DNA of 52,547 bases from a virus (taxonomy: Duplodnaviria; Caudoviricetes), in the IMG/VR virus record IMGVR_UViG_3300021405_000017, positions 1-52,547 of that record. The stretch is one strand, 5' to 3'. Within the stretch, counting starts at the first letter, position 1, and each line of letters opens with the position of its first letter. Positions 11,772 through 45,983 of the stretch are shown piece by piece. A program made the translations under genes and the position numbers. The notes beneath the pieces are model-generated. The model saw only the letters and a program-made list of their open reading frames with translations. It made no database searches and had not been told where the DNA came from.

Positions 11772-11974
11772 GTTTTCTAAACCGTTTTCTAAACCGCCCC
11801 GACGGTTTAAAATAAACCGCCCTAAGTTATTGAAAAGATTGGCTGGGGGACCTGGATTCGAACCAAGATTGACGGAGTCAGAGGCCGTTGTTCTTCCTTG
11901 ATTTTATTGGGAAAGGTTTTTTAAACCGCGATTTTTGGCCCTAAAGAGATCAATGGGTTGCGCTCGGTTTAGAA
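11772..11974. mobile_element. attP: core = 3' half of tRNA-Gln(CTG) (11840-11884, minus strand) with arm-type repeats
   Basis: Minus strand CTCTGAC-TCCGT-CAATCTTGGTTCGAATCCAGGTCCCCCAGCCA gives anticodon loop CTG, T-arm and CCA end. TAAACCG-containing repeats at 11772, 11784, 11803(rc), 11917 and 11965(rc); adjacent to the integrase. Confidence 0.9.
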
Positions 11975-13070
11975 TACGATTTTCGCCCGCCTCGTAGACT
12001 TCAAATTTAGCCATCGCTGCGCGCGCGACGCTCAGGTCAAGGTTCACATAACCAGCGAGCGAAGAGCGCTTTGTGCCGCTCTCCAAACCATGCCCGGTAA
12101 TGCTGGCGATCTCGATCGTGGTGCAGCCGGCGCGTCCCATGCGTGACGCGGCGGTCCCTCGTAGATCATGGAACGTGACGCCGCCTTTCCGGCTGCTTGG
12201 CACGCCCGCCTTGATACAGGTCTTACGCCACATGACCCGAAAGCCATCCGGCGTCCACGGCTCGCCGCTCTGGTTGACCAGCATGAGCTCATCTTTGCGG
12301 GGTGTCGCGTCGAGGATCGCCCTCAGCGGCGCCGCCACCGGGACGACGATATCGACGTCGGTCTTGCCTTGAGTCAGCGCGATCACGTCGCCGTCGTATG
12401 CGGTCCATGGCAGCCGGAGGAGATCGCCTTGTCGCTGCAAGGTCCAGAATGCGAGGGCCATCGCCAGCGACAATTCCGGCGAGGCGGCTGCCCTGAACGC
12501 CGCCATTTGGCCCTCGGTCCAGACCTTGTGTTTCCGACTCGTGCTGTAGAGTTTCTCGACGCCCGAGCGAGCGCAAGGATTGAACTCGATCTCGCCCCGC
12601 GTCGTCGCGAAATTCAAAACGATATTCAGGACGACCCAGGCATAGTCGGCCTGCCGGTCTGATTTCTTAGCGAGCTGATCGCGCCAGCGGAGGAAAATCC
12701 CTCGCGCCCGATTCTTGACCCCCAGGGCGATGATCGGCATCTGGCGATGTTCGGTGGGAACGGCGGCCAGGAGCTTGCGATAGTCGCGCTGTGTCCGCTC
12801 TTTCCGCTTCCGAAATTCGGGGCTGTCGAGATAAAGGTCAATCAGCCATTCGAGCGTCTTGCCGGCGGTCGCGCGCGGCTCGTTGGAGTTGGCGATCGGA
12901 CCCGCCGCCTTGATTGCCAGCGCCTCCGCCAGCGCGCGCCTGAACTCAGGCGAGCCTTCCGGCCCAGGTAGCTTCGGGCCGCCCTGCCACGCGTAGAGGT
13001 AGAGAACGGTCGTTCCATCGGCGAGTTTTTTGGGGACGCGGTGAATCCCCCCTTTACTTGGACGTCCCAT
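11904..13070 (-). CDS. int: Tyrosine recombinase (phage integrase)
   Basis: Catalytic R (LQRQGD), K (QGKT), HDLR, GH and Y (AGYV); next to attP. Confidence 0.95.
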   Translation of the reverse strand: MGRPSKGGIHRVPKKLADGTTVLYLYAWQGGPKLPGPEGSPEFRRALAEALAIKAAGPIANSNEPRATAGKTLEWLIDLYLDSPEFRKRKERTQRDYRKLLAAVPTEHRQMPIIALGVKNRARGIFLRWRDQLAKKSDRQADYAWVVLNIVLNFATTRGEIEFNPCARSGVEKLYSTSRKHKVWTEGQMAAFRAAASPELSLAMALAFWTLQRQGDLLRLPWTAYDGDVIALTQGKTDVDIVVPVAAPLRAILDATPRKDELMLVNQSGEPWTPDGFRVMWRKTCIKAGVPSSRKGGVTFHDLRGTAASRMGRAGCTTIEIASITGHGLESGTKRSSLAGYVNLDLSVARAAMAKFEVYEAGENRILNRAQPIDLFRAKNRGLKNLSQ

Positions 13071-13266
13071 AATATTTCGCTTCCCAATCCGCTAAGGCCC
13101 GCTCGGCGCTGGCTGCCGGCGTTGTCTGGATGCTCACTTCGCCGCTCACGATTGTGATCTTGCCGGCGCTGTCGATTTCGCAGCGCGTGACATGGAGCCC
13201 GGCCGCCTTGGCCGCGCGGAGCGCGCGAGTGACGTCGCTTTGACGGAAGGATGACGGACGTTTCAC
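13054..13266 (-). CDS. Putative excisionase/recombination directionality factor
   Basis: RPSSFRQSDVTRALRAAKAAG...EIDSAGKI; small basic protein overlapping the int start. Confidence 0.6.
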   Translation of the reverse strand: MKRPSSFRQSDVTRALRAAKAAGLHVTRCEIDSAGKITIVSGEVSIQTTPAASAERALADWEAKYYGTSK

Positions 13267-13481
13267 CGTCGCTCGCCCTTCCCCGTCGCGGAATCGGCCC
13301 TTTCGCTTATGGCGGGAAGCCCCGCCGGGCGACGCGCCCCCGGGCGCGGTGTCTCACACTTCGCCCGAGCGGTCCGCGAAGACAAGAGGGCGCCGCGCAC
13401 AATTTGCGCTCCGTCCACGGGAATAGGCGCGGCCTGGTCCGATTCAATTCTCATCACCACGCCGCGCCTCCTTCCGTCTCA

Positions 13482-13977
13482 GCCGGCCCAGCCCCGCCTC
13501 GCCTTGCCAGATCAAGCCTAGTCACACCGCGCCTGGTCCAGCCTCGCCGGCCCCGCAAGCCGCGCCATGCCAGGCCACGCCTTGCCTCGCCAGGCCTCAC
13601 CATTCCGGCCGCGCCGAGCCCGGCCTTGCCTAGCCACGCCACGCCGCGCCAGACCCCGCCGCGCCGGCCTTGCCTTGCCTCGCCGGGCCTAGTCGCGCCC
13701 GGCCGCACCGAGCCTGGCCGAGCCCGGCCGTGCCGCGCCCCGCCGAGCCCTGCCTGCCTCGCCCCACCTCGCCAGGTCCAGCCTTGCCAGGCCTTGCCCC
13801 ACGCCGCACCTGCCTTGCCCTGCCTCGCCAAGTCGCGCCCGGCCTCGCCGGACCCAGCCCAGCCTGGCCACGCCTGCCTTGCCACGCCCAGCCTCACCGG
13901 GGCCGGCCGCGCCTTGTCTAGCCTAGCCATGCCTGGTCCGGCCGCGCCGTGCCGCGCCTGCCTTGCCTCGCCTCGTC
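13482..13977 (-). ncRNA. GGY-NN pentamer array 1 (about 7 putative guide units)
   Basis: Strict 5-nt periodicity (plus strand RCCNN, minus strand GGYNN) with 4-nt steps at 13482, 13546, 13604, 13663, 13752, 13808, 13872 and 13956. Intergenic, starting at the upstream gene's stop codon. RNA status inferred. Confidence 0.8.
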
Positions 13978-14280
13978 TCATACGGGCGAATCGAGCCGTT
14001 TGAACTCGCCTCGCCGTAGCTCGATGGCCGGGACACTCCGGATCTCGCTGCGCCGCGCCTTGATGACGAATTCGCGCCATTCTCGCCGCTGCTCCCGCTC
14101 TAAGCCGCGTACTAGGTCAGCCTGATATTTCTCCGACAACGCGCGCTTCACCCAAGCGTCGAACGGCAGCCGAGCCGCAGCTGCCGCCTCCTCGAACGCC
14201 TGCATGATCGGCGAGGCAAGGCGAATGTGGAGCGTCTTGCCGCCCACCTCGTCGTCATTGTCATTGATGGGTTCGTTCAT
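13978..14280 (-). CDS. Small hypothetical protein (possible RHH/HicB-like DNA-binding) between arrays 1 and 2
   Basis: AAGGAG RBS; TLHIRL...AAAAARLPFDAWVKRAL. Confidence 0.6.
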   Translation of the reverse strand: MNEPINDNDDEVGGKTLHIRLASPIMQAFEEAAAAARLPFDAWVKRALSEKYQADLVRGLEREQRREWREFVIKARRSEIRSVPAIELRRGEFKRLDSPV

Positions 14281-14301
14281 GACCCTCTCCTTTTCACTTT
14301 T

Positions 14302-15777
14302 GCCCGCCTTGCCTGCCTTGCCTTGCCGAGCCTTGTCGGACCCAGCCGGGACACGCCAAGCCTCGCCATGCAACGTCCCGCCGCGCCTGCCTTGCCATGT
14401 CGGGCCTAGCCGGGTCGGATCTTGCCGAACCCCGCCAAGCCTCGCCTCGCCCGGCCCGGTCAAGCCACGCCTGCCTTTGCCTTGCCATGCCTGGCCTTGC
14501 CCAGCCGCACCGTGCCGAACCCGGTCGGACCCGGCCAAGCCTGCCATGCCAGACCTCGCCTCGCCGCGCCTTGCCAAGCCTCGCCAAACCCGGCCATGTC
14601 GCATCCGGCCGCGCCTGCCTCGCCCCGCCTTGCCTCGCCGCGCCCTGCCCAGCCCGGCCAGGCCGAATCGTACCGGGTCTAGTCATGCCCCGCCGGCCTC
14701 GCCTTGCCCCGCCAGGCCCAGTCTCGGCTCGTCCTGCCTCGCCTAGTCCCGCCCAGTCGCGCCCGACCATGTCAGGCCGTGCCCGGTCCCGTCTTGCCGT
14801 GCCGCGCCTTGCCAGGCCTGCCTCGCCATGCCTCGCCAAGTCGCGCCTTGCCTCACCGCGTCTGGCCCGGCCTTGCCGCGCCAGGTCTCGCCGTGTCGCG
14901 CCTGCCTTGCCTTGCCTTGCCCGGCCCCGCCTCGCCGGGTCCCGCCATGCCTGCCTCGCCTCACCCCATCGTGCCGGGCCAAGGCGTGTCCCGACATGCC
15001 TCGGCATGCCAGGCCCGGCCCGGCCGGACCTCGCCTGCCTAGCCTCGCCCGGTCGCGCCGAGTCGAGCCTAGCCTCGCCGCGCCCCGCCGTACCGTGCCC
15101 GGCCGGGTCATGCCTGCCTCGCCCCGCCGCGCCAGCGCCATGCCAAGCCTTGCCGAGTCGCGCCTGGTCGTGCCTGGCCCGGCCAGGCCCAGCCTGGCCA
15201 TGCCTGCGTTGCCTTGCCTCATCAGGTCAGGCCATGCCTCGCCTCGCCCAGCCTCGCCTCGCCTCGCCTGTCTGGCCATGCTTCGCCTCGTCACATCATG
15301 CCGCGCCGGATCAAGCCTCGCCCGGTCCCGCCGTGCCGTGCCTGACCCCGCCTCATCAGGTCTGGCCATGCCTGCCTCGCCTCGCTGCGCCGGGGCTCGC
15401 CCGGCCAAGCCGGGTCGAGTCCCGCCTGGCCCCGCCTAGCCTGCCTTGCCGTGTCAGGCCTCGTCACGCCTCGCCGTGTCCGGCCCAGCCTAGTCTGGCC
15501 ATGCCTGCCGTGTCCGGCCCAAACCAAGCCTCGCCTTGCCGCGCCTTGCCTCGCCACGCCTGCCTTGCCCGGCCAGGCCAAGCCTTGTCACGTCGCACTG
15601 CATCCCGCCTCGCCTGCCTTGCCTGGCCTCGCCAGGTCTCGCCGCCCTTGTCCTGCCCAGCCTCGCCTGCCTTGTCAGGCCACGCCTAGCCGGACCGGGC
15701 CGGGCCTAGCCTTGCCTCGCCGCATCTGGCCCGGCTCTGTCATGCCAAGCCTGGCCTTGCCTGCCTTGCCGTGTCAG
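14302..15777 (-). ncRNA. GGY-NN pentamer array 2 (about 19 putative guide units)
   Basis: About 1.47 kb of pentamers. GGCAGGC-type junctions at 14311, 14385, 14469, 14539, 14613, 14692, 14816, 14900, 14949, 15033, 15112, 15202, 15266, 15370, 15439, 15503, 15558, 15612, 15665 and 15759. Confidence 0.8.
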
Positions 15778-16316
15778 GCGGCGGTTCGTGAGCCGCCGCC
15801 CTTGCCTTTGCCGCCTTTGCCGCCGCCGGCCTTGCCCGCACCTTTGCTCGCAGCCTTGGCGGCGCGGGCTCGTTCGGCGATGGTTTCGAGGTTGAGCAAC
15901 ATGGTGTCCAAGTCTGGACCGACGCCCAGGACGAGGGCGACCTTTCGCGCCCGCTCTATAGCGGCGGCGATGCGGTCAACCTCGTCCTCGAGGACTCGCA
16001 GCGCCCGCGCGCGCTGACCTTTGAACGAGGTCAATTCGCAAGAGGTCTGCGTTTTCGGCGCTCGATCGGGATCGACAATGTAGTAGGGCACTACGATGGT
16101 TTCGGTCTCCGTGATGACCTCAAACCGGACGTAACGGATCAGGGTGCGGGCCTGCTCGATCCAATGCTGTTGCGCCGCCTTTTTTACGTCCCATTCGAAG
16201 TCTTCATGGATTGGAGAGCCGGGAGGCCGAGCCGCTTCGACCACCTTCTCAGGCTCAAGACGCCCGCTGGAGTCTTCCAGCGAGCGAATAAAGGCGGCCT
16301 TGGCCGCCGACATCAT
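15774..16316 (-). CDS. Partner protein of the RAMP-like gene (function unknown)
   Basis: LEPEKVVEAARPPGSPIHEDFEWD..AAQQHWIEQARTLIR motif; ATGA-coupled to the RAMP-like gene; array 2 begins at its stop codon. Confidence 0.75.
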   Translation of the reverse strand: MMSAAKAAFIRSLEDSSGRLEPEKVVEAARPPGSPIHEDFEWDVKKAAQQHWIEQARTLIRYVRFEVITETETIVVPYYIVDPDRAPKTQTSCELTSFKGQRARALRVLEDEVDRIAAAIERARKVALVLGVGPDLDTMLLNLETIAERARAAKAASKGAGKAGGGKGGKGKGGGSRTAA

Positions 16317-17197
16317 TGCGACAGCCCCACCTCGTCGCCGCCGCCATTGCTCTTAGGCGGGCGCTTGCCGTTTGCGGCTTTCGGCGTCTTGCCCTTTGAC
16401 GCCTTGCCGCCCTCGCGCTGAGAGCTAGCCTCGCGCCGGATGATCTCGCTCTCGTACCACACCCACAATTCTTCGCTGTCGATATCGCTCGCCTCCGGGT
16501 TATCGTAGGCCGCCTGTTGCACCTTACGGCCGCCGTTCTTGACGATATCGAGCCAGCGCGGGTCACGCGCATCGACGACCTCCCAGCCGCCGTTGTTGAA
16601 GGTGCCCTTCTCTGTTCGCCCGTCGCCGATGCCGGTCACATCGCCGGCGTTCGACATCAAGTTGACGATCGCCCGCTCGGTCGTCAGCGTCTTGATGAAT
16701 TGGACGGTGAGTTTCACCGCCCATGTTTTGAACATCGCGCGGGTTCGAATGTCGGGCACGCGCTTCATGCCCTCAAGGCGGACCCAATCCATGTAGAGGT
16801 AGGGCTTGCCATAGACGTGGACCGTCTGGTCGACCACCTGCACCAGACAGCCGATCTCAGTCTTCGTTGCACCTGGCGTGCGGAGCGCCGCGGAACCGAG
16901 CGCCTTTTTGAAAGCGCCGGTAGGGAAGTGAAAAAGCGTAGGCGCGCTATCGTCGCGGCACCGATACATTGTGTCGCGGAATTCAGCGAGCGGGTCATGT
17001 TTCAAAATGACCTGCTTCTCGGCGTTGTTTTTAGCGCGCGACGGAAGCAACAGCTGCTGCTTCGCTTTCGCGCTCGGCCGATTCATCACCAGGGGCGCCG
17101 TGCCCAGAAGATGGAAGACAACGTAGCCTCGCTCGAAGCGCTTAAGCTCCGAGACCATCTCGGTGGTGTCGCGTGTTTTACTGGGTTTGGTAGCCAT
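16313..17197 (-). CDS. Stand-alone RAMP/Cas7(Csm3)-like RNA-binding protein (Vipr-like)
   Basis: N-terminal LLGTAPLVM (cf. RAMP TxSPLxIG), FHFPTGAFKKAL (cf. YIPGSSLKGAL) and C-terminal Gly-rich loop GIGDGRTEKGTFNNGGWEV. Flanked by pentamer arrays; AGGAGG RBS. Confidence 0.75.
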   Translation of the reverse strand: MATKPSKTRDTTEMVSELKRFERGYVVFHLLGTAPLVMNRPSAKAKQQLLLPSRAKNNAEKQVILKHDPLAEFRDTMYRCRDDSAPTLFHFPTGAFKKALGSAALRTPGATKTEIGCLVQVVDQTVHVYGKPYLYMDWVRLEGMKRVPDIRTRAMFKTWAVKLTVQFIKTLTTERAIVNLMSNAGDVTGIGDGRTEKGTFNNGGWEVVDARDPRWLDIVKNGGRKVQQAAYDNPEASDIDSEELWVWYESEIIRREASSQREGGKASKGKTPKAANGKRPPKSNGGGDEVGLSQ

Positions 17198-17252
17198 TCT
17201 CGTCTATGCTCCTCCTTTCGGAAAACGGCCTATCCGCTTTCCGTCGTCGCTT

Positions 17253-17279
17253 GGCCCGGGCGTCGTGAGCGCCCGGGCC
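17253..17279 (-). other. 10-bp perfect hairpin at the 3' end of array 3
   Basis: GGCCCGGGCG-7 nt-CGCCCGGGCC. Confidence 0.7.
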
Positions 17280-17299
17280 TTGCGTTTCGTTCGCGCTCA

Positions 17300-17939
17300 G
17301 CCTGCCGGCCGAGCCTTGCTTTGCCTCGCCATGCCGGGCCGTGCCACGCCGGGCCTGACCAGACCCAGCCCTGCCGAGCTGCGCCACGCCAAGTCGCGCC
17401 TGCCTCGCCCAGCCGGGCCGTGTCGGGCCTAGCCGCACCTCGCCCGGCCTCGCCAGGTCCGGCCGCGCCAAGCCTTGCCTGCGTCGCCGCGCCGTATCGC
17501 GCCGGACCGGGCCACGCCCCGCCAAGCCTCGGCCAGACAAGCCTCGCCAGGCCGCGCCTGCCTTGCCTCGCCATGCTGAGCCCAACCCCGCCAAGCCCCG
17601 CCGCGCCAGGTTCAGCCAGGTCCGGCCTCGCCTGCCTCGCCTTGCTCCGCCCCACCTCGCCGTGCCCCGTCACGCGTTGCCCGGTCGCGCCCAGCCGTGC
17701 CCCGTCTCGTCTAGCCATGCCTGCCTTGCCCCGCCGAGCCGGGTCTGGCCTTGCCCCGCCAAACCGCGCCACGCCAAGCCTGGCCTGACCCCGCCTGCGT
17801 CGCCTTGCCTCGCCTCGCCCGGCCAAGCCGCGCCCGGCCTCGCCATGTCGGGCTCAGCCCGGCCAGGCCTCGCCGGTCATGCCGCCCCTTATCGAGCCCA
17901 ACCCCGCCATGTCTGGCCAAACCGCGCCTGCCTTGCCTC
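17300..17939 (-). ncRNA. GGY-NN pentamer array 3 (about 8 putative guide units)
   Basis: Junctions at 17300, 17398, 17477, 17556, 17630, 17719, 17793, 17872 and 17926; spacings mostly 5n+4 (54-98 nt). Confidence 0.8.
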
Positions 17940-18966
17940 AAAGGAGGTTCTCCTCTGATTTGGCCGCAGAGGAGCGGCGAGGCGGTTCACCACCGTCCTC
18001 TGCGGCCGCATCCGGCGCGGGTGGTTGTGGCCCGGCGGGAGGGGGATTCTCCGCCGTTTGAGCCGCGCCGGAATCTAAGTTCGGGGATAGGTCAGTAGCG
18101 CCGGCTGCCCCGGCGAGCGCGTTCAGCTTCGAGGACAGGCCTTTCAGGGCAGGGCCTCGGTCGGCTTTCGGTTCTGGAAACAGCGTCTCGACTGTCGACT
18201 CGCCAGACTTGATCGCCTGCCGCATCGCGGTCAGCGTAATCAGATCGTCGAGGCCGACGTCCTCGATCCCCGGAACCTCAAGCGCGTTGAAGACGCGCTC
18301 GGGGGTAACGCCCCAGGCCGCGAAAGACCTGACCGCTACGTCCCGGCGCTCAGAGAGCGTCTTGACGTCGCCGGCGATCACCCGCTCGACCGACTGATAG
18401 GCTCGCCGCCAGATCGCCTTGGGCACGCCGCGCATGATCGCGTTGCGAAGCGCGATCGAACACGCGGCCTGGCCGGTCACCATGATTAAATCGTCGTCGT
18501 AAATCCGGCCATGCTTGTCGAAGATACGCCGGCGCACCCGTGACGTGGTGACGCGGCCCGTCTCCAAATCGTGGAAGACGCCCTCGGCCTCGACGAACTT
18601 TTCAATCCGATCGATGTGGATGACGCGGGAGGCGTCGCGGCAATTGCCCCATTGCGAGGCGACGATCTCGGCGAAACGTATGGACGGACCGCGAATCGCC
18701 TTTTTGCCGCGAGGCAGCGCATAGACGCATTCTTCCGCGGTCTCGTCGTCGAGCGTCGCCAGGCCCAGGATGTCGCTCATCACCTTCTTTTGCGATCGTG
18801 GATAGGCGTGCGCGGTATTGACCTGCTGATCGACCTCGGCGCGGCTGAGCGCGATCGCCAGGCTCATTTGGCTTTGCGCCGGACCGGCGTCGATCGTCGC
18901 CAGCGGGCCGAAGTCGTCCGTCTGTTCGAGATCCGTTTCGACGGGCTTAGCCATTGGCTTTTTCAT
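17938..18966 (-). CDS. Putative single-strand annealing/recombination protein
   Basis: DQQVNTAHAYPRS...YALPRG...GPSIRFAE..ASQWGN; adjacent to the YqaJ exonuclease. Function inferred from context. Confidence 0.6.
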   Translation of the reverse strand: MKKPMAKPVETDLEQTDDFGPLATIDAGPAQSQMSLAIALSRAEVDQQVNTAHAYPRSQKKVMSDILGLATLDDETAEECVYALPRGKKAIRGPSIRFAEIVASQWGNCRDASRVIHIDRIEKFVEAEGVFHDLETGRVTTSRVRRRIFDKHGRIYDDDLIMVTGQAACSIALRNAIMRGVPKAIWRRAYQSVERVIAGDVKTLSERRDVAVRSFAAWGVTPERVFNALEVPGIEDVGLDDLITLTAMRQAIKSGESTVETLFPEPKADRGPALKGLSSKLNALAGAAGATDLSPNLDSGAAQTAENPPPAGPQPPAPDAAAEDGGEPPRRSSAAKSEENLL

Positions 18967-19912
18967 GTTGCGCTGCCTTGATTGAGACTTGTCGCCAGAT
19001 GGACGCCTTCACCTGGTAGGCGCCGCGGCGGCGGGTCGGGGCGACGATCAGGCGCCCGTCAGGCAGCCGGCCGCGCTCGGCGAGCCCGAGCTTGGCGACA
19101 ATTTCCGTGTCGATGATTTTGCGCTCTTTGGCCGCCGCGGCTCCGTCATCCTCGCGCGCCTTGAACGCCTCGCGTTGCGTAACAAGGTCGAGGATGCGGT
19201 TGTCGGCGCGTAGGTCGACTTCGGTGTCTTCCGCCTCAGCGTAGAGGCGCGCGATTACATCGGCGTCGTCAGCGTAATGGGGTGGATAGGAATCGCCCTC
19301 CGCGACGCGGCGCCAGAAGTCGGCGGTGAGCTCGCGTAGTTTCACCATGATCGCTGACTCGATCGGTATCTCCTCGACGTGGGCCGTCCACTCCGACATT
19401 TCCAATACCGCCACCGCGGCCCATGTGGCGCCGGTCAGAGAGGCCTCAACAATCGCCTGGACGGCGATCCAAAGCGGGACTTCAATTTCGCCACCCGCCT
19501 GCCAAGTGCGGCGGAAGGCCTCGCCCGCGGTTTTCACCTGCAGAACGCCCAACCCTTCGATGTCAGGACAGGTGACGAAGGCGTCGGGCGTGGCGCCGAT
19601 CCGGGCCACTGGATCGCGGTAGTAATGATCGCCAGGAACGATCGTCCAATCAGGGTAGGTTTCCGCGACCATGTTGAGGACGACGTGCTCGAGGTCGCGC
19701 CCGCGCCGCATCGCCGGCGTCTCATGGACGCGCTCTTCGACGCGCCCGCTCTTAACGGCCCACAACTCGAAGGCGGATTTGTAGGGATGGATCGCATCGG
19801 CGAGCAAAGCCGCGATTTCAGATGCGGTGACATCCTGCCGACGCCATTTGAGCCACTCGGCGTGATCGGTGATCGGCCGCTTTTCGATTGTCTGCTCGGC
19901 GAACGCGTTCAT
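18947..19912 (-). CDS. YqaJ/lambda-exonuclease family viral recombinase nuclease
   Basis: EWLKWRR..VTASE, RGRDLE, IGATPDA, VLQVKT, AVQ motifs. Confidence 0.85.
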   Translation of the reverse strand: MNAFAEQTIEKRPITDHAEWLKWRRQDVTASEIAALLADAIHPYKSAFELWAVKSGRVEERVHETPAMRRGRDLEHVVLNMVAETYPDWTIVPGDHYYRDPVARIGATPDAFVTCPDIEGLGVLQVKTAGEAFRRTWQAGGEIEVPLWIAVQAIVEASLTGATWAAVAVLEMSEWTAHVEEIPIESAIMVKLRELTADFWRRVAEGDSYPPHYADDADVIARLYAEAEDTEVDLRADNRILDLVTQREAFKAREDDGAAAAKERKIIDTEIVAKLGLAERGRLPDGRLIVAPTRRRGAYQVKASIWRQVSIKAAQHEKANG

Positions 19913-20178
19913 GCGTTCCCCGTCTGGTCAGGCTGGCCTTCGAACCGCGCGATTTGCTCCTTGAGCATCGTCACGATGTCCGCGCGGCTGGCGCCGTTGC
20001 TGATGTAATTCACGCGCCCGTCATCGGCGCCGAAAGGAAAGACCATCAAGATGAAGCCGACCTTGCGCTCCTTGCCCTTAGCTACGCCGTTGAACGCCTC
20101 GTCAAGCGCGCCGGCGACCGCGTTCATCGTATCGCGGTAGGTCTCCTCGATCGGCGCGTCGCCCAGCCGCTCAGTCAT
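19909..20178 (-). CDS. Conserved phage hypothetical protein
   Basis: GFILMVFPFG..GRVNYISNG.RADIV.MLKE. Confidence 0.7.
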   Translation of the reverse strand: MTERLGDAPIEETYRDTMNAVAGALDEAFNGVAKGKERKVGFILMVFPFGADDGRVNYISNGASRADIVTMLKEQIARFEGQPDQTGNA

Positions 20179-20366
20179 GGCGTCCTCGCCAAGGTGATAG
20201 GCGCCTTGCGCCGGGTGCGATGGTGCAGCACGCGCGGGTGCTTCCACGGATTGTCGTCGCGGCGCCTGTTCGACAACGTGCACGCGCAAGCCCGACACAT
20301 GCCCGTCTTGCCGGTTCCCTTGGTCGGCCTTTCGCAGCGTGGACATCTCAGCTCAAGTTCGGTCAT
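20175..20366 (-). CDS. Small zinc-finger protein
   Basis: CPRC...CRAC; ATGA overlaps. Confidence 0.5.
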   Translation of the reverse strand: MTELELRCPRCERPTKGTGKTGMCRACACTLSNRRRDDNPWKHPRVLHHRTRRKAPITLARTP

Positions 20367-20704
20367 GGCGCCCGTTCTCGTTCGCTGTCCGTTCCGATCC
20401 GCGAATCGTCGGCGCGCCCATGGCCCGCGTCATCCGGCAAGGGCGCCCGGGCCTTGTCCCCCGGATTGTTTGCCTCAGCCCCGTTCGGCTGCCGGCGCTG
20501 AATGTTGCGCATCTCGTTGACGAACATCCGGAACGTCTCGGCGAGTTCAGGATCCGCGCCGGATTGCGCCGCCTGAATCTGGGCCGCGGTCAGGCCAACG
20601 AGCGCCTCGCCGGACGTCTTGCGCTCATGCGCGCGACACTGCGTTGCGGTTGGGAAGTCGCGGCCATCGCGGGCGACATAGACAGTGCGTTGCTCGGCCT
20701 TCAT
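20363..20704 (-). CDS. Hypothetical protein
   Basis: YVARDGRDFPT...CRAHE; ATGA overlaps. Confidence 0.6.
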   Translation of the reverse strand: MKAEQRTVYVARDGRDFPTATQCRAHERKTSGEALVGLTAAQIQAAQSGADPELAETFRMFVNEMRNIQRRQPNGAEANNPGDKARAPLPDDAGHGRADDSRIGTDSERERAP

Positions 20705-20919
20705 CGGACCAGCGTCGCTCCCTTCAACTGCCGGCCTACGTCGTCACTCATGAGGTCGATCGACCGGGCGGTTTCGCGGTGCGCCTCAGCGATACGAAGG
20801 CTTGCTTCCTCAATCGTGTTCGCAAGCTCCATCAACGCCTCACAAATCGTAACGTCGCGGCTATCGGTGCCCTTCATGACTTCGCGCCTGGCTTCCTGCG
20901 CTTCGCTCAGTGTCCGCAT
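20701..20919 (-). CDS. Hypothetical protein
   Basis: AGGAGG RBS. Confidence 0.6.
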   Translation of the reverse strand: MRTLSEAQEARREVMKGTDSRDVTICEALMELANTIEEASLRIAEAHRETARSIDLMSDDVGRQLKGATLVR

Positions 20920-20940
20920 TGGTTCCTCCTAGAAGTGCTT

Positions 20941-21028
20941 GCCGGTCCGGCCGCGCCACGTCCCGCCGCGCCATACCCAGCCGGATCAGACCGAGCCTCG
21001 CCGCGCCTCGCCGGCCTTACCTCGCCAT
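20941..21028 (-). ncRNA. Solo GGY-NN unit (array 4)
   Basis: 13 pentamers between 4-nt steps at 20941 and 21010; intergenic. Confidence 0.75.
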
Positions 21029-21034
21029 AGTTCT

Positions 21035-21385
21035 TCATGACCAAACGATGCGCTCGAACAGCACCGCCGGGCCGGCAATCCAGGGCAACGTTTCCGCGAT
21101 CTTGACGTTCTGGTAGAGCAGCGCGTTGCGCCGGTAGATGATGGTAGCGGCCTCGTTACGCGGCAGGCCCCTGTCATGGCCCATCTCGTCGACGAACATG
21201 TCCGCCCTCTTGAAGGCGAGGCCGCCATTGAAGTCAGCGAGCACACTGACGTGCTCGCAGTGCTCGCAGCCGATCAGGAGCTGCATCAGCCCGTTGATCT
21301 CGCGATAGGCCGGCCGCTCCGGCAGTTCGAACGTCCGCGTCTCGCTCGACTCGTCGGGCTTTAGGACGAGAAGCTTAGTTTCCAT
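21035..21385 (-). CDS. DUF3846-like hypothetical protein
   Basis: MFVDEMG...LPRNEAAT.IY...IAGPAVLF. Confidence 0.65.
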   Translation of the reverse strand: METKLLVLKPDESSETRTFELPERPAYREINGLMQLLIGCEHCEHVSVLADFNGGLAFKRADMFVDEMGHDRGLPRNEAATIIYRRNALLYQNVKIAETLPWIAGPAVLFERIVWS

Positions 21386-21575
21386 CGGCGGGCGCCTCTT
21401 GCTCAATGATGTCGAAGCGCTCGAACAGTTCGACCGCGACGTCCTGCACGTCGATGACCAGCGGTCCTGAGCCGCCGGATGGGACGACAAACGTGTTGCC
21501 CTCGCGCTCGCCGCCGTCGCCGAGGGCCTCGAAGATCGCGTCCATGAGGGCCTTCATGCTTGCCGGCTGTTTCAT
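21375..21575 (-). CDS. Hypothetical protein
   Basis: Coupled ORF in the early left operon. Confidence 0.5.
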   Translation of the reverse strand: MKQPASMKALMDAIFEALGDGGEREGNTFVVPSGGSGPLVIDVQDVAVELFERFDIIEQEAPADGN

Positions 21576-21751
21576 GCGGCGCTCACCCGCCCGATCGTCA
21601 TCGCCGCAAACCATGGCTCGCCGTCAGGGCCGGTGAATGTCGCCTTCCACTGAAACGGAACCGGGATGCTTCCATCCTGGATCGCGAGATTGATCTCGAA
21701 TTCAAGCTCGGCGAGCGCCGCTTCCATGTCGGCCTTGCGTTCCTCGCTCAT
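21572..21751 (-). CDS. Hypothetical protein (59 aa, below ORF-track cutoff)
   Basis: MSEERKADMEAALAELEFEINLAIQDG...; ATGA overlaps on both sides. Confidence 0.55.
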   Translation of the reverse strand: MSEERKADMEAALAELEFEINLAIQDGSIPVPFQWKATFTGPDGEPWFAAMTIGRVSAA

Positions 21752-22362
21752 GCCCGCACCCGGGTGGAGAGCGCTGCTTTTTCAACCGCGGTCAAATCCC
21801 ACTGGCAGACCACCAGCCACAAATCGCCCTGGCCGATGCGGCGCAGGAGCAACGGATCGTTCGGCGGCGCCTTGGTCCACTCGGCTTCCCACAAAGTGCA
21901 ATAGTTCTGCAGGCCGCGCTTCGGCCGCAGATGCAAGGGCGGCGTTGGAACGAGCGCGGTCGCGCCCCACGGGCGCCGGCCGGCGAGAACCGGGAACGAG
22001 CCGGCCGGCCAAGAGATGACCGAGCGCGATTCCATCGGCGTCCAGGACGGGCGGCGATAGCGTACCGAAGCGTTATCGGCGGCCATCGTCGCCGCGCCGT
22101 CATGATTGAAGCGCAGCACGCAAGCGACCGCGTCGGCGCGGCATAGCGCCAGCTTCGGAAAGCCGACGCCTGGGCCCTCGGTGAAGACGCCGGCTTGCTG
22201 GACGGATGCCAGCGCCTGAATGACCATCCTGCCCGCGGCGATGAGTTGGTACGTTCGGCGCACTTCCCAATCGATGGGCTTCGACCAGTGGGCGTGTTTC
22301 TTGTATTCCCGGTAGAGCTGCCGGGCCTTGCTGCGGTCGAGTTCGACGGATAAGGTTTGCAT
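21748..22362 (-). CDS. Conserved phage hypothetical protein
   Basis: ALVPTPP..RP....Y.TLWEAEW..APP.DPLLLRR...W.V..QWDLT; first gene of the leftward early operon. Confidence 0.7.
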   Translation of the reverse strand: MQTLSVELDRSKARQLYREYKKHAHWSKPIDWEVRRTYQLIAAGRMVIQALASVQQAGVFTEGPGVGFPKLALCRADAVACVLRFNHDGAATMAADNASVRYRRPSWTPMESRSVISWPAGSFPVLAGRRPWGATALVPTPPLHLRPKRGLQNYCTLWEAEWTKAPPNDPLLLRRIGQGDLWLVVCQWDLTAVEKAALSTRVRA

Positions 22363-23658: not shown

Positions 23659-24053
23659 GCTTTGATCTCCTCGAGGCGCTCACCGAACAGGCGGCCAAGC
23701 GCGAGGGCGTGCCGCGGGCCGAAGCCCGGCCGGCGGTCGAAGAGGCCGCGGAGGTTCTGGAATGGCGGATAGGCCGCGAGCCGCCGCGAGGCCGCGTGTT
23801 GCGATTGGCGGCGCTCCTGATCCATCCGCACGCGCGCCGCAAGTACCGCAACGTCCTGGTTGAGATCGACGAGATCGAGCTCGACGGCGATGACGGCGGC
23901 AAGATCCCGAGCATCGCCGTCACCTGCACCAAGTGCCGCGAAAGCGTCGAGATTTACGGCCGGCACGAGGCCTCGATCATCCGCGGCTGCGCCACTCTGG
24001 CCGACGACTGCGGCGAGTGGAATTTCTACGTCTACGACGAGGCGGTCGCGTGA
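23655..24053 (+). CDS. Hypothetical protein (Cys-containing)
   Basis: ATGA-coupled; CTKC...C...C. Confidence 0.55.
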   Translation: MSFDLLEALTEQAAKREGVPRAEARPAVEEAAEVLEWRIGREPPRGRVLRLAALLIHPHARRKYRNVLVEIDEIELDGDDGGKIPSIAVTCTKCRESVEIYGRHEASIIRGCATLADDCGEWNFYVYDEAVA

Positions 24054-25054
24054 CGGATGAACCCGAGTCCGACGACAAGCGCCAGAGAGGAAACGTCATG
24101 CCATTCGTCAGACCTAAGGAGGACGCGCGTTCATTCGAAACCACGCAGATGGAGACCAAGCTCTTAAGCCTTGGTGAAATGTACTCTTGGACCTTGCCGG
24201 CGTTTCAGCGCGATGAAGTGCAGACGAAAAAGGTCATTGAGTTTGCCGAGGAACTCAGAACCAACGGCGGCGTAGTGGCCGGCGTGATCCTGCTCGGGAT
24301 GCTGCGAGCGGCCGAGGAGTCTGTTGTTTATCTGGTTGACGGACAGCAGCGCCGCAATGCGTGTCAAATATCCGGTCTGTCCGAATTCATCGCTGACGTC
24401 TGCCTCAAACGCTACGACTCGATGGCGGACATGGCGGAAGATTTCAAGCGCGTGAACGCCCGGCTCGTTCCCTTCAAGCCGGACGATTTACTACGCGCCT
24501 GCGAGCTGTCGCATCAGTTTCTAAAGGAGTTGCGCGACCGTTGTCCCTTCATCGGATACGGCAACATTCGCCGATATGAGGATCGGTCGCCGACCTTGAG
24601 CGTCTCGATCGCGCTCAAATGCTGGTTCGGATCAGGCCAACCGACTCCAGGCGCGCAAGGTCAGGCCGTCGGGCTCCTCGATCAGCTCGACGACATTCAA
24701 TCCCAGAATCTGTCGGTCTTTCTGATCATGGCGCACAAAGCATGGGGAAGCGATCGGCAATACGGCCGCCTGTGGGCGAACCTCAATCTGACGATGTGCA
24801 TGTACTTGTATCGCAAGCTGGTGCTCGACCCGAGCAATCGGCGCGCGCCTTTGCCGAAGGAGATGTTCGGCAAAGCTCTCATGTCGGTTTCCGCCAACGG
24901 CCCTTATATCGACTGGCTGTCAGGCCGCAGCATTAGCGAGCGCGATCGTTCGCCCTGCTACAAGCGCTTGAAGAGCATCTTCGTTGAGCGGCTGACGCAG
25001 GAATACAACGGCAAGCTCTTTAAGCTGCCAAGTCCGGATTGGGCATCCAGTTGA
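24050..25054 (+). CDS. ParB-superfamily DGQQR/DUF262-like domain protein
   Basis: LPAFQR and YLVDGQQR motifs. Confidence 0.7.
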   Translation: MTDEPESDDKRQRGNVMPFVRPKEDARSFETTQMETKLLSLGEMYSWTLPAFQRDEVQTKKVIEFAEELRTNGGVVAGVILLGMLRAAEESVVYLVDGQQRRNACQISGLSEFIADVCLKRYDSMADMAEDFKRVNARLVPFKPDDLLRACELSHQFLKELRDRCPFIGYGNIRRYEDRSPTLSVSIALKCWFGSGQPTPGAQGQAVGLLDQLDDIQSQNLSVFLIMAHKAWGSDRQYGRLWANLNLTMCMYLYRKLVLDPSNRRAPLPKEMFGKALMSVSANGPYIDWLSGRSISERDRSPCYKRLKSIFVERLTQEYNGKLFKLPSPDWASS

Positions 25055-25800
25055 GCGCCGATCCCGCCCAGCCGCCGCGATCGCGAGGCGTTGGAAAAAC
25101 CGATCATTCGTGGATCAAGCACGGGATGGCCGCAAGCGCCGTCGGCGCTCAGGTCGCCGCATTCCGCCGGCTTTTTCCGGATGCGCGGATGGCGCTTATC
25201 GACGGCAACGCCGGCGACGGCGTCGGCGTCGAAACCGGGCAGGCCGATCTGTTCGACGGCGTGCGGCAGTCGCGGCCGACGCCGCGCTTACTGGCTGATC
25301 TGGCGAGAAAGCATAACGCGACGCTGTGTCTGTGCGAGTGCGATCGAGTCAAGCGGAAGATGCTGATCGAAGGATTTCCCGCCGCGACCGTCGTTTCGAG
25401 CCATCGCGAGGCGGCGGCTTTCGCCCTCAAGGGCTTCAATTATGCGCTGTGGCTCTCCGATCCGTGCGGTTATGCCGGGCATGGCGTCGAGCACATGCGC
25501 ACGGTCGCTGACATTTTTCACAGCGACTTCATCATCATTTTGAATGAGCTGGCTTTGGAGCGCGTTCGCGGCGCGAGGGGTTCGCCGCATTGGCTTCCGC
25601 ATCAGAAGTACACTCCGATGTTACAGCCTTCGTGGTGGCTGCAACAGCTCCCGAAGCGCTATCTCGCGCGCTCGCCGCTGATCAACCAATCTCCCGGATT
25701 TCACTTCCGATTGTTGGTCGCCAGCAACTTCCTGACCGATGGCGTCAAGCGGATGCGCAAGGTCGAAATCATCACGCGACAACAGGAGGGGCGAAGATAA
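25051..25800 (+). CDS. TcmP-like (three-Cys-motif partner) SAM-dependent methyltransferase-fold protein
   Basis: IDGNAGDG, LCECD, WLSDPCG; directly upstream of a DUF5131 gene. Confidence 0.6.
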   Translation: MSADPAQPPRSRGVGKTDHSWIKHGMAASAVGAQVAAFRRLFPDARMALIDGNAGDGVGVETGQADLFDGVRQSRPTPRLLADLARKHNATLCLCECDRVKRKMLIEGFPAATVVSSHREAAAFALKGFNYALWLSDPCGYAGHGVEHMRTVADIFHSDFIIILNELALERVRGARGSPHWLPHQKYTPMLQPSWWLQQLPKRYLARSPLINQSPGFHFRLLVASNFLTDGVKRMRKVEIITRQQEGRR

Positions 25801-28352: not shown

Positions 28353-28421
28353 GGCCGCCATGACCGTCTCGCCTGCAACCCGGACCGTAGCAGTTGACGT
28401 GATCGAATAAGGGCGCGCCCG

Positions 28422-28867: not shown

Positions 28868-30300
28868 TGCCAGAGCGACCGCCCTATTTCACCGAGGCTC
28901 AATGGCAGGAGCACCTCCGCCGGACAGGACAGGCGCCGGCCGGCGAGGAGCAGAAGCCGCCGCCGCCCGACAACGGCCAGCCTCCGGGCGGCTTCAATGA
29001 GAGGGTGGTCCAATTCGACCAGGCTCGAAAGCGCAAGCCCAAGCCGCCGCCGACGCCGCCGCCGGGCGGCTGGCCCGAATGGGTGGGACGTCTACGGCGC
29101 GACGATCGCGGCCGAGTCATCCCCGACCTCGCCAACGTCCTGATCGCCCTGCGCGGCGAGGACAAGCTCGCCGAGGCCTGCGGCTTCGACGAGATGCTAC
29201 AGCACTCGATGGTGTTGAAGGAATGGCCGCGCCTGCCCGACGCCAAGCCGATCAAGCCGCCGCCGCACGAGACCGATGATGATGACATTAGCCGGATCCA
29301 GGAGTGGTTGCAGCGCATGGGCCTGCCCCGGATCGGGCGCGAGATCGTCGGCCAGGCGGTCGAGGTCTTCGCCCGCGAGCGCAGCTTTCACCCGGTGCGC
29401 GATTGGCTCAACGGCCTCAGCTGGGACGGCGTACGCCGAATCGACCGCTGGCTGTTCGTCTATTTCGGCGCGGAAGCCGAGGATGATGACGCGATTGAAT
29501 ACGTCAGCGCGATCGGCAAGATGTTCCTCATCGCCATGGTGGCGCGGGTGTTTCGACCCGGCTGCCAAGCCGATTACATGCTCGTGCTCGAGGGCGACCA
29601 GGGCATCCTCAAATCAAGCGCCTGCCGCGCGCTCGCCGGCCAATGGTTCTCGGACAGCTTGCCGGATGACATTCAGGGCAAGGACGCCCGCCAGCACTTG
29701 CGCGGCAAATGGCTGATTGAAGTCTCCGAGCTTGCCGCCTTTTCCAAGGCCGAGACCGAGGCGCTGAAAGCCTTCATCACCCGGCGCGAGGAACGCTACC
29801 GTCCGCCCTTCGGCCGGCATGACGTGGTCGAAAAGCGGCAATGCCTGTTCATCGGCACCACCAACGAGGAGAGCTACATCAAGGACCAGACCGGCGGGCG
29901 CCGCTATTGGCCGGTCAAATGCCTGTCGATCGACGTCGAGGGCCTCGCCGGCGTCCGCGACCAGTTATTCGCCGAGGCCTTGATCCGGTTCCGCATGGGT
30001 GACCGCTGGTGGCCGACCGCCGCGGACGAGGCCAGGTTCTTCAAGCCGCAACAGGAGAGACGGGAGGAAGATGATCCGTGGGTTCCGCCCGTGGCGACCT
30101 GGCAGCAGGGCTTCCCATCGGACAAGGTGACGGTGTCGCAAGTTGCCCGCGAATGTTTGGGGTTTGACGGCAATTCCCGCATTGACCCGCGAGTACAGCA
30201 GCGGATCGCTAAGATACTCAAGAGGTTAGGTTGGGCGCAACTGCCGAGGACGATGCACGGCCGCTTTTACGCCCGGCCGCGAGGCGACGACGACGCATGA
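28867..30300 (+). CDS. VirE/VapE-family SF3 helicase (replication)
   Basis: FHPVRDWL, Walker A LEGDQGILKSS, Walker B LIEVSEL, FIGTTN, DQTGGRRYWPV. Confidence 0.9.
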   Translation: MPERPPYFTEAQWQEHLRRTGQAPAGEEQKPPPPDNGQPPGGFNERVVQFDQARKRKPKPPPTPPPGGWPEWVGRLRRDDRGRVIPDLANVLIALRGEDKLAEACGFDEMLQHSMVLKEWPRLPDAKPIKPPPHETDDDDISRIQEWLQRMGLPRIGREIVGQAVEVFARERSFHPVRDWLNGLSWDGVRRIDRWLFVYFGAEAEDDDAIEYVSAIGKMFLIAMVARVFRPGCQADYMLVLEGDQGILKSSACRALAGQWFSDSLPDDIQGKDARQHLRGKWLIEVSELAAFSKAETEALKAFITRREERYRPPFGRHDVVEKRQCLFIGTTNEESYIKDQTGGRRYWPVKCLSIDVEGLAGVRDQLFAEALIRFRMGDRWWPTAADEARFFKPQQERREEDDPWVPPVATWQQGFPSDKVTVSQVARECLGFDGNSRIDPRVQQRIAKILKRLGWAQLPRTMHGRFYARPRGDDDA

Positions 30301-32822: not shown

Positions 32823-32835
32823 ATGCCGTCGCCCC

Positions 32836-45866: not shown

Positions 45867-45983
45867 GGCGGCGGCCCGCGCTAAACGGACCGCCGCCCCT
45901 TGCCTTGCCCAGCCCTGCCGCGCCTGGCCCCACCGGACCGGGCCGAGCCGTGCCTTACCACGCAACGCCAAGCTTGCTTGGCG
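45867..45983 (-). ncRNA. Solo GGY-NN unit (array 5) with its own promoter and 3' hairpin
   Basis: 14 pentamers at 45902-45971. Upstream TTGAGC-N18-TAGGTT (46020-45991); downstream hairpin 45867-45897. Confidence 0.75.

What the first reader, a model, noticed from the sequence alone, without database searches (positions are those of the whole stretch)
13482..21028. NN dinucleotides spell a gapped code (2 paired, 1 skipped) in phase with codons
Concatenating NN with one skipped base (NNxNNx...) gives codon positions 1-2 of recognisable phage protein motifs in at least 9 of ~36 hand-parsed units (detailed in separate findings). The skipped base falls on the wobble position, so third-position synonymous changes would not escape targeting. 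Units match both sense and antisense to the gene, which implies a dsDNA rather than mRNA target. Caveat: each NN allows up to two amino acids and I read both strands, so single decodes are soft. The number and length of motif hits is the evidence.
Basis: partly seen in the sequence, partly recalled or inferred. Interest (0 to 1): 0.95.

Follow-up and report, generated by a model that had tools for sequence, protein, structure and literature searches.

The report
Phage VIPR guide-RNA arrays, gapped code
This soil prophage carries a recently described VIPR system, a CRISPR-like protein plus long arrays of 5-base repeats whose two variable bases spell codon positions 1-2 of rival phages' genes, so it is a real but already published kind of element.

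Summary
The repeat is real. There are 2.7 kb of GGY-NN pentamers on the minus (gene) strand, forming 34 units of 8-24 pentamers separated by 1-nt-overlap steps (GGCA|GGC). They flank a two-gene operon. One gene (16313-17197) folds as a Cas7/Csm3-like RAMP. Its partner (15774-16316) sits beside it in 84 of 110 related loci.

This is a VIPR system, described in three 2026 bioRxiv preprints: Vipr protein, vrRNA, 1-nt-skip code, wobble skipping, "staggered arrays" and solo vrRNAs.

I tested the gapped code here. Against 2.56 Mb of related phage DNA, 5 of 34 units beat all 40 NN-order shuffles at skip 1. The counts for skips 0, 2 and 3 were 1, 0 and 0. The supported hits lie in frame, with the skipped base at wobble. 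They fall in VapE helicase (3 units), a RecT-region gene of a sibling phage (1), an ATPase (1) and homologues of the gene next to the solo unit (11/13 residues).

All supported hits are coding-sense. I found no perfect natural target.

The scan's first-stage notes had already flagged this same DNA. Verdict: new member of a known kind.

The parts
13482..13978 (-). vrRNA array A: 7 units of >=8 GGY-NN pentamers. Includes units 13557 and 13815, which match the VapE helicase.
13978..14283 (-). 101-aa ORF between arrays A and B. Not conserved in related loci, so probably not a core part.
   Evidence: no family; 0 of 110 loci
14300..15775 (-). vrRNA array B: 18 units, staggered with 1-nt-overlap junctions GGCA|GGC. 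Includes units 15273 and 15672.
15774..16316 (-). vap-like accessory gene, 180 aa. Helical/beta N-domain plus a long helical hairpin and a K/G-rich tail.
   Evidence: homologue on the vipr strand in 84 of 110 loci; abutting vipr, -33 to +78 nt, in 55 of the 60 placements printed, upstream in 5; pLDDT 84; only weak winged-helix-type matches, E 0.7-0.9
16313..17197 (-). vipr: RAMP (Cas7/Csm3-like) protein, 294 aa, with G-loop GIGDGRTEKG.
17300..17945 (-). vrRNA array C: 8 units. Includes unit 17879.
20940..21028 (-). Solo vrRNA unit (13 NN) directly downstream of gene 21035-21382.
21062..21100 (-). Resident allele of the solo unit's target site. It is compatible with the guide at 9/13 residues; relatives reach 11/13.
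29125..29151 (+). Resident VapE helicase site with a 16/18 NN match to unit 13557 (a near-self match).
45890..45969 (-). Possible further solo unit (16 pentamers, two degenerate). No target found.

Best explanation
The region is a VIPR (Viral Interference Programmable Repeat) locus of a temperate phage.

Proposed mechanism. The minus strand is transcribed into long precursor RNAs made of GGY-NN pentamers. These are cut, or read, into units at 1-nt-overlap junctions (GGCA|GGC), the 'staggered array' layout. One Vipr protomer (gene 16313-17197, a RAMP fold) binds each pentamer. It hides the GGY bases and presents the NN pair. The presented dinucleotides pair with DNA that reads NNxNNx..., skipping every third base. 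Because the guides copy codon positions 1-2 of the coding strand, the skipped base is the wobble base, so synonymous mutation does not give escape. Binding to the template strand of rival phages' replication and recombination genes would silence those genes. The targets seen are the VapE helicase, a homologue of the 17938-18966 gene, and homologues of gene 21035-21382.

Shown here: array anatomy, RAMP fold, conserved vipr-vap pair, strand-specific linkage between arrays and vipr, the skip-1/codon-phase/coding-sense signal, and the prophage context.

Inferred from the preprints on E. coli phage SUSP1 and a P. fulva prophage: transcription, processing, filament formation, dsDNA binding and silencing.
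For: Anatomy
- 462 pentamers in 34 units, 96% with RYC on the + strand.
- 20 junctions are exact 1-nt overlaps.

Protein
- AF2 model pLDDT 83.6.
- All 18 Foldseek PDB hits at E<=0.001 are type III/VII Csm/Cmr/Cas7 effector-complex chains. Best E is 9e-5 and probability 1.0.
- The G-loop motif GD[GFW]R is conserved. It corresponds to D177-W178-R179, which contact GGY in SUSP1 Vipr (paper passage).

Linkage
- 64 of 80 IMG/VR loci with a vipr homologue have >=6-pentamer GRY chains on the vipr strand. Only 1 of 80 has them on the other strand.
- A vap homologue is present in 84 of 110 loci, always on the same strand.
- The same holds in the cultured phages UmaThurman and Saal.

Code, DNA level
- 2.56 Mb, 40 shuffles: units beating all shuffles were 5/34 at skip 1 and 1/34, 0/34, 0/34 at skips 0, 2, 3.
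- 537 kb of helicase loci, 30 shuffles: 3/34 against 0, 0, 1.
- 400 shuffles: unit 13557 scored 17/18 (z 3.8, 1/400); 13815 scored 21/24 (z 5.5, 0/400); 15672 scored 27/36 (z 5.6, 0/400). At the other skips these units had z<=0.6.
- Unit 17879 scored 18/20 (z 3.9, 1/150). Unit 15273 scored 30/40 (z 5.5, 0/150).

Code, protein level
- 3 of 34 sense decodes reached p<=0.005 against 107 VapE proteins, one of them 9/9.
- Unit 20948 matched 11/13 against 120 homologues of the neighbouring gene, with 0 of 500 shuffles reaching 11.
- All five DNA hits are in frame, NN on codon positions 1-2, on the coding strand.

Composition
- RNA-sense NN usage fits codon positions 1-2 (sense) best of six phase/strand models. 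In the window logL is -1132.7, against -1156.2 for uniform and -1166.1 for the next model. In 73 other loci it is -9781, against -9854 for uniform and -9984 for antisense.

Context
- Integrase, YqaJ/RecE exonuclease, helicase-primase and terminase are present.
Against: - No perfect natural target was found. Exact skip-1 IMG/VR scans of 4 units gave 0, 0, 0 and 1 hit. The single hit lies in a 33% GC contig in a doubtful ORF, so it is probably chance.
- A scan with <=3 mismatches for unit 13815 in 401 genomes of one order found nothing.
- The best matches are 75-94% of NN bases.
- 28 of 34 units have no identified target.
- The all-against-all test of 493 guides against 1.13 Mb showed no skip preference.
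- Unit 20948 is not significant at DNA level in IMG/VR loci: skip 1 gave 20/26 (91/400 shuffles as good), while skip 0 gave 21/26 (7/400).
- Unit 15273 also scores z 3.2 at skip 2.
- Unit 14318's skip-1 hit lies in a stretch with stop codons.
- 150 representatives of the 17938-18966 protein family gave 0 of 34 significant decodes.
- tblastn of the Vipr candidate against 50,697 phage records hit 33 records, none from Escherichia. Direct sequence homology to the experimentally studied Vipr is therefore not shown.
- There is no RNA evidence.
Confidence: 0.9

Rival explanations
1. The arrays are Vipr-bound RNAs, but the NN do not guide DNA recognition in this clade. They could be, for example, a scaffold or sponge RNA. 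On this view the motif matches reflect where the NN were copied from, not what they target.
For: No perfect target was found. 28 of 34 units are unexplained. Unit 13557 nearly matches the phage's own helicase gene at 16/18.
Against: Skip-1, in-frame, coding-sense matches to rival alleles score better than matches to resident alleles. Unit 20948: 11/13 against 9/13. Unit 17879: 10/10 residues against 4/10. Guidance by NN has been shown experimentally for other VIPR types (paper).
Confidence: 0.05
2. The guides act on mRNA as antisense RNAs, not on DNA.
For: None from my calls.
Against: The RNA strand is fixed by GGY and by the vipr orientation. It carries the same sense as the target coding strands in all five in-frame hits and in the composition test. 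It therefore cannot pair with those mRNAs.
Confidence: 0.02
3. A functionless pentanucleotide satellite produced by slippage, or a repeat-protein gene. Long + strand ORFs of 250-430 aa run through the arrays.
For: TRF reports imperfect periods of 5 to 44. + strand ORFs 14397-15689 and 16517-17788 are open.
Against: Three bases are conserved while the two NN are hypervariable. 0 five-NN words are shared with 1199 chains from other loci. The 4-nt steps break any reading frame. The arrays are linked, strand-specifically, to a RAMP gene in 64 of 80 loci. There is a codon-phase signal toward other genes.
Confidence: 0.02

Closest known systems
VIPR systems with 'staggered vrRNA arrays' (bioRxiv 10.64898/2026.04.26.720920; Fig. 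S18 legend read)
   Same: GGY-NN pentamer RNA. A RAMP-like Vipr gene plus one accessory gene. Proviral context. Units joined by a 1-nt overlap (20 junctions). Skip-1, wobble-phased matches to other phages' genes.
   Different: I could not assign the type (I-VII) because the supplements are closed. The arrays are large, with 34 units in 2.7 kb. The second repeat base is A in 74 of 462 pentamers, so the motif is GRY rather than strict GGY. The supported hits are all coding-sense, whereas the paper reports targets on both strands.
Type II VIPR of E. coli phage SUSP1 and a P. fulva prophage (same preprint; cryo-EM in 10.64898/2026.04.26.720927)
   Same: One protomer per 5-nt repeat is the inferred mode. 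The G-loop D-x-R motif is shared. There is a vipr-vap operon. Solo vrRNAs exist (10.64898/2026.10.15.759431, section 8).
   Different: There is no invariant ~40-nt 3' tail or pseudoknot after each unit. SUSP1 has 4 vrRNAs, not 34. tblastn gave no detectable sequence similarity to Escherichia phage records. The residue equivalent to W178 is Gly in the window protein.
Class 1 CRISPR Cas7 backbone (Csm3/Cmr4; type III and VII)
   Same: RAMP fold. A periodic break in the guide-target duplex.
   Different: There are no CRISPR repeats or spacers; TRF found none. No Pfam cas-family match among the 10 neighbouring proteins scanned. The period is 5 nt with 2 paired bases, not 6 nt with 5 paired. The system is phage-borne.
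TRAP-type proteins binding (G/U)AG-NN repeats (recalled from memory, not from any call)
   Same: A conserved triplet plus a 2-nt spacer, repeated about 11 times, with one protein subunit bound per repeat.
   Different: In TRAP the spacers carry no information, the protein is not a RAMP, and its function is attenuation.

Membership tests
VIPR | Tandem YNNGG / GGY-NN repeats (>=4) with a conserved triplet and hypervariable NN | tested here: met
   462 pentamers, 96% RYC on the + strand. All 16 NN are used. No NN words are shared with other loci.
VIPR | Vipr protein with a RAMP fold (RRM core, G-loop, thumb) | tested here: met
   AF2 pLDDT 83.6. All 18 Foldseek hits at E<=0.001 are Csm/Cmr/type VII Cas7 complex chains. 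G-loop GIGDGRTEKG, with invariant G185, G191, D192, R194 and G198, and near-invariant G189 (>=90%).
VIPR | Arrays adjacent to vipr on the same strand, without cas genes or a CRISPR array | tested here: met
   The arrays flank vipr-vap on both sides. 64 of 80 related loci have same-strand arrays, against 1 of 80 on the other strand. TRF found no CRISPR-like repeat. Neighbouring proteins have no cas families.
VIPR | Accessory vap gene in an operon with vipr | tested here: met
   Gene 15774-16316 overlaps the vipr stop. Homologue present in 84 of 110 loci, always on the vipr strand. Which of vap1-6 it is could not be tested because the supplements are closed.
VIPR | Natural targets follow the 1-nt skip rule, with skip bases at wobble | tested here: met
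   Skip 1 gave 5/34 units above all shuffles, against 1, 0, 0 for the other skips. Five in-frame hits. No perfect match was found.
VIPR | Viral or proviral location | tested here: met
   Integrase, RecE-like exonuclease, helicase-primase and terminase are present. The tools treat the window as a virus record.
VIPR | vrRNAs expressed, processed and bound by Vipr; dsDNA binding and silencing | not testable with these tools
   No RNA run was listed (noted under Tried and rejected only).
VIPR | Sequence homology to an experimentally characterised Vipr (SUSP1, P. fulva) | tested here: inconclusive
   tblastn against phage records gave 33 hits (Mycobacterium, Gordonia, one cyanophage) and none from Escherichia. 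The paper states that RAMPs share little sequence similarity.
CRISPR-Cas class 1 | Repeat-spacer array plus a multi-gene cas operon | tested here: not met
   No direct repeats of CRISPR type. Only vipr and vap are conserved.

The most novel reading that the evidence does not exclude
In this clade the guides are almost exclusively coding-sense, in-frame copies of conserved motifs from replication and recombination genes of sibling phages. These include alleles of the phage's own genes that differ at only 1-4 NN positions.

If so, three things would follow. First, guide origin or selection is strand-specific: guides are copied from transcripts, or selected for template-strand binding. Second, self versus rival is told apart by a handful of NN mismatches, giving 'allelic exclusion' between sibling prophages. 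Third, multi-kb staggered arrays act as a heritable catalogue of rivals.

None of this is described in what I read of the three preprints.
Probability: 0.3. Interest if true: 0.6.

Novelty: new member of a known kind. Interest (0 to 1): 0.35.

Why it matters
This is an independent, purely computational confirmation of the VIPR 1-nt-skip, wobble-phased code. It comes from a clade far from the E. coli and Pseudomonas systems where the code was established, and it is backed by explicit skip and shuffle controls.

It also gives concrete handles for follow-up:
- 34 candidate guides.
- Five guide-gene assignments.
- A possible coding-strand bias.
- Cultured, safe model phages (Mycobacterium phage Saal, Gordonia phage UmaThurman) that carry the same vipr family and staggered arrays. 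In UmaThurman the array is currently annotated as a protein gene.

For annotation, such arrays generate long false ORFs. They also appear to break metagenome assemblies.

Tried and rejected
- Self-targeting in the window showed no signal for any skip.
- All-against-all test of 493 guides against 1.13 Mb of vipr loci showed no signal.
- L111, a 22-kb stretch of a close relative: whole-set mean excess was about 0. Units 13557 and 15672 just exceeded 50 shuffles at skip 1.
- Exact IMG/VR pattern scans of four units gave 0, 0, 0 and 1 hit; the single hit looks like chance.
- A single-protein metagenome look-up of the 21035-21490 gene gave one 1.5-kb locus, which was not informative.
- The pattern of unit 13815 with <=3 mismatches found nothing in 5 genomes or in 401 genomes of the order of G001.
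- On 30 integrase loci from five genomes, unit 15135 scored 18/28, p=0.79. Its top hit does fall on box II, so the integrase reading is unproven but not excluded.
- 150 representatives of the 17938-18966 family gave 0 of 34 significant decodes. Unit 17879's match is to a divergent allele type seen in L113 only.
- Rfam on 12500-22000 found nothing relevant and no hammerhead.
- The vap fold search gave no significant match.
- Megablast of 23900-32900 against phage records gave no match.
- No tRNA was found.
- Sequencing runs: no RNA holder listed; only one DNA run, which may be the source sample.
- I first considered a TRAP/CsrA-like protein-sponge RNA, a G-quadruplex, a primase-site array or a centromere. 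I dropped these once the RAMP fold and the preprints were in hand.
- Supplements of the preprints were closed. The VIPR type, the vap class and whether this contig or its relatives are in the authors' 664 loci could not be checked.


Full report
**What is there.** On the + strand the span 13482-21028 holds four blocks of pentamers NN-RYC. Of 41 chains of >=5 in-phase RYC triplets in the whole 52.5-kb window, 40 lie in this span and one lies at 45902-45959. A dynamic-programming parse gives 34 units of >=8 pentamers: 7 in 13482-13978, 18 in 14300-15775, 8 in 17300-17945 and 1 at 20948-21012. They hold 462 pentamers. The triplet is GCC in 335, GTC in 60, ACC in 34, ATC in 14 and something else in 19. 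All 16 dinucleotides occur at NN. Read on the minus strand, which carries all neighbouring genes, the units are GGY-NN, or more exactly GRY-NN. Units are separated by 4-nt steps. In RNA sense, 20 junctions are exact 1-nt overlaps of the form GGCA|GGC. The 3' end of most units carries GA or AA before that step.

**Context.** The window is a virus record, and the 'genome' held for it is the window alone. It encodes a tyrosine integrase (11904-13070), a YqaJ/RecE-like exonuclease (18947-19912), a VapE-type helicase-primase (28438-30300), a DNA methyltransferase, a large terminase and tail-fibre-like proteins. The arrays sit in the leftward early operon next to the integrase.

**The proteins between the arrays.** Gene 16313-17197 (294 aa) has no Pfam family but has 87 homologues. 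Its AlphaFold model has pLDDT 83.6. All 18 Foldseek PDB hits at E<=0.001 are chains of type III Csm/Cmr or type VII effector complexes. The best E is 9e-5 with probability 1.0, and the target-normalised TM-score reaches 0.55. Its glycine-rich loop, GIGDGRTEKG, is the most conserved stretch. In the family it reads GD[GFW]R.

Gene 15774-16316 (180 aa) overlaps the stop of the first gene. It has a homologue on the same strand in 84 of 110 loci that carry the RAMP gene. In 55 of the 60 placements printed it abuts that gene (-33 to +78 nt), and in 5 it lies upstream. Its model (pLDDT 84) has no significant structural match. The top weak rows are forkhead and PadR winged-helix DNA-binding domains at E 0.7-0.9.

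**Linkage of protein and arrays.** The RAMP family has at least 500 relatives in IMG/VR. Of the 80 loci kept, 64 have chains of >=6 GRY-period-5 pentamers on the strand of the RAMP gene, mostly within 2 kb of it. Only 1 of 80 has such a chain on the opposite strand. In species genomes the family occurs mainly in Alphaproteobacteria (30 loci). Distant homologues (27-33% identity) occur in 33 cultured-phage records. In the two records I opened, Gordonia phage UmaThurman and Mycobacterium phage Saal, the same staggered GGC-NN arrays ending in GGCAG lie next to the gene.

**Literature.** A full-text search led to bioRxiv 10.64898/2026.04.26.720920. I read its results and several methods sections. 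It describes VIPR systems:
- a phage-borne RAMP protein (Vipr), an accessory vap gene, and vrRNAs of 9-16 GGY-NN repeats;
- skip bases at wobble, targets on both strands, and dsDNA binding with transcriptional silencing;
- seven types;
- 'staggered arrays' whose vrRNAs overlap by 1 nt.

The companion cryo-EM preprint 10.64898/2026.04.26.720927 (outline and sections 5-6) shows one protomer per repeat. In that structure, G-loop residues D177, W178 and R179 and thumb residue R138 hold the GGY bases.

A third preprint, 10.64898/2026.10.15.759431 (outline and section 8), states that codon-periodic targeting blocks mutational escape, and it describes solo vrRNAs.

Searches found no other papers on the subject. 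The kind is therefore in print. Whether this contig is among the authors' loci I could not see, because the supplements are closed.

**Testing the code on this locus: the nulls.**
- Against the window itself there is no signal. Mean best NN fraction is 0.668 for real units and 0.663 for shuffled ones at skip 1, and the other skips are similar.
- At protein level only two units stand out in the window: 13557 (8/9, inside the helicase frame) and 20948 (9/13, in the neighbouring gene). Each has p=0.01.
Its methyltransferase site is not the best hit of its unit.
- An all-against-all test of 493 guides from 81 loci against 1.13 Mb gave no skip preference.

**Testing the code: the positives, using homologues of the two candidate genes.**
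- Unit 20948 decodes in RNA sense to a 13-residue pattern. It fits 11/13 residues at the C-terminus of two homologues (P0089, P0112) of the adjacent gene, against 9/13 in the resident copy. None of 500 shuffles exceeded 8.
- Against 107 VapE proteins, 3 of 34 sense decodes reached p<=0.005: unit 13557 at 9/9, unit 13815 at 9/12 and unit 15672 at 12/18. 0 of 34 opposite-strand decodes did so.
- At DNA level on 987 kb of IMG/VR relatives with 400 shuffles, the same three units score 17/18, 21/24 and 27/36 at skip 1 (z 3.8, 5.5, 5.6). At skips 0, 2 and 3 they score 14/18, 17/24 and 22-23/36 (z<=0.6).
- On 2.56 Mb (221 loci plus the window, arrays masked), the units beating all 40 shuffles number 5 of 34 at skip 1, against 1, 0 and 0 at skips 0, 2 and 3. 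About 0.8 is expected by chance.
- The two additional units are 17879 and 15273. Unit 17879 scores 18/20 bases and 10/10 residues in the homologue of gene 17938-18966 on a sibling-phage contig; the resident allele fits 4/10. Unit 15273 scores 30/40 in an AAA-ATPase ORF beside another vipr locus.
- On the two closest relatives' contigs, 3 and 2 units reach p<=0.01 at skip 1, against 0-1 at the other skips.
- All five hits start on a codon boundary of an open frame and lie on the coding strand.

**Composition as an independent check.** The usage of the 16 NN in RNA sense is best explained by the dinucleotide frequencies of codon positions 1-2 in sense orientation. This was compared with five other phase/strand models, a uniform model and a genome-wide dinucleotide model. 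It holds in the window (417 NN: logL -1132.7, against -1156.2 for uniform and -1166.1 for the next model). It also holds in 73 other loci (3554 NN: -9781, against -9854 for uniform and -9984 for antisense). Among the 61 loci with >=20 NN, the sense model is best in 36 and the antisense model in 15.

**What does not fit or remains open.**
- No perfect target was found.
- 28 of 34 units are unassigned.
- Unit 20948 is not significant at DNA level in IMG/VR loci, and one skip-0 score there is nominally better.
- Unit 15273 has a secondary skip-2 signal.
- Unit 14318's hit is in non-coding-looking sequence.
- The integrase unit is not significant.
- The 150 nearest representatives of the 17938-18966 family give nothing.
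- Unit 13557 matches the phage's own helicase at 16/18. That is above the 80% threshold the authors use to call targets, and they report no self-hits at that level.

The strand result nevertheless supports a DNA target, because an mRNA-sense guide cannot pair with the mRNA.

**Mechanism and status.** I conclude, at about 0.9, that this is a VIPR locus of the staggered-array kind. Shown here: array anatomy, RAMP fold, the conserved vipr-vap pair, strand-specific linkage, the skip-1/wobble/coding-sense signal toward rival phage genes, and the proviral setting. Inferred from the preprints: transcription and processing, one protomer per pentamer, gapped pairing with the template strand, and silencing.

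One speculative point follows from the family motif and the cryo-EM passage. The residue that stacks on the second G in SUSP1 Vipr (W178) is Gly in this protein. That might relate to the 16% of repeats that have A at that position.

**Novelty and score.** This is a new member of a known kind. The concept, the skip rule, the wobble logic, staggered arrays and solo guides are all in print. What is added is an independent confirmation in a distant clade with explicit controls, five guide-gene assignments, a possible strand bias, and cultured model phages of the same clade. Interest is 0.35.

Noticed in passing
L223 (NC_031249.1, Gordonia phage UmaThurman) 3075-3370; L224 (NC_023580.1, Mycobacterium phage Saal) 2122-2344: These cultured phages carry a distant homologue of the Vipr gene with staggered GGC-NN arrays beside it. 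In UmaThurman the array lies under the annotated 'hypothetical protein' gp40, so that CDS is probably spurious. In Saal the array fills the gap between gp50 and gp51.
   Followed up: partly
window 29125-29151 (+): Unit 13557 (9 NN) matches the phage's own VapE helicase gene at 16/18 NN bases, in frame. This is above the 80% level used in the preprint to call targets. It could reflect tolerance of two mismatches, autoregulation or a decayed unit.
   Followed up: partly
window 45890-45969 (-): An isolated run of 16 pentamers (two degenerate) lies between the terminase gene and the next ORF. In RNA sense it ends in AA AA like the array units. It may be a further solo vrRNA. No target was found.
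   Followed up: partly
window arrays, all units: In RNA sense, NN = AG is nearly absent inside units (plus-strand CT occurs in 6 of 462), apart from the junction GGCAG. This fits the rarity of AGN codons in GC-rich genes, but it could also be a processing constraint.
   Followed up: no
proteins P0002-P0005: The closest Vipr relatives (76-89% identity) all sit on contigs of 1.4-2.0 kb, about the size of the vipr-vap block between arrays. This suggests the arrays break metagenome assemblies and that VIPR loci are under-assembled.
   Followed up: no
window 13251-14003, 14397-15689, 16517-17788 (+): Long open frames of 250-430 aa run through the arrays on the strand opposite the genes, because the repeats rarely create stop codons. 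They are likely false gene calls.
   Followed up: no
window 15774-16316 and 16313-17197 (-): Both the vap-like and the Vipr proteins end in low-confidence Lys/Gly-rich tails (pLDDT <50), which may be nucleic-acid-binding extensions.
   Followed up: no
L090 and L095 (same contig JAMHVU010000035.1, a Sphingobium MAG): Two separate vipr-family genes lie about 34 kb apart on one bacterial contig. This could be two VIPR-bearing prophages, or one element with two systems.
   Followed up: no
window 13978-14283 (-): A 101-aa ORF lies between arrays A and B. It has no family hit and no homologue in 110 vipr loci. Whether its sequence looks like a small ribbon-helix-helix-type regulator is only my impression and was not tested.
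   Followed up: no
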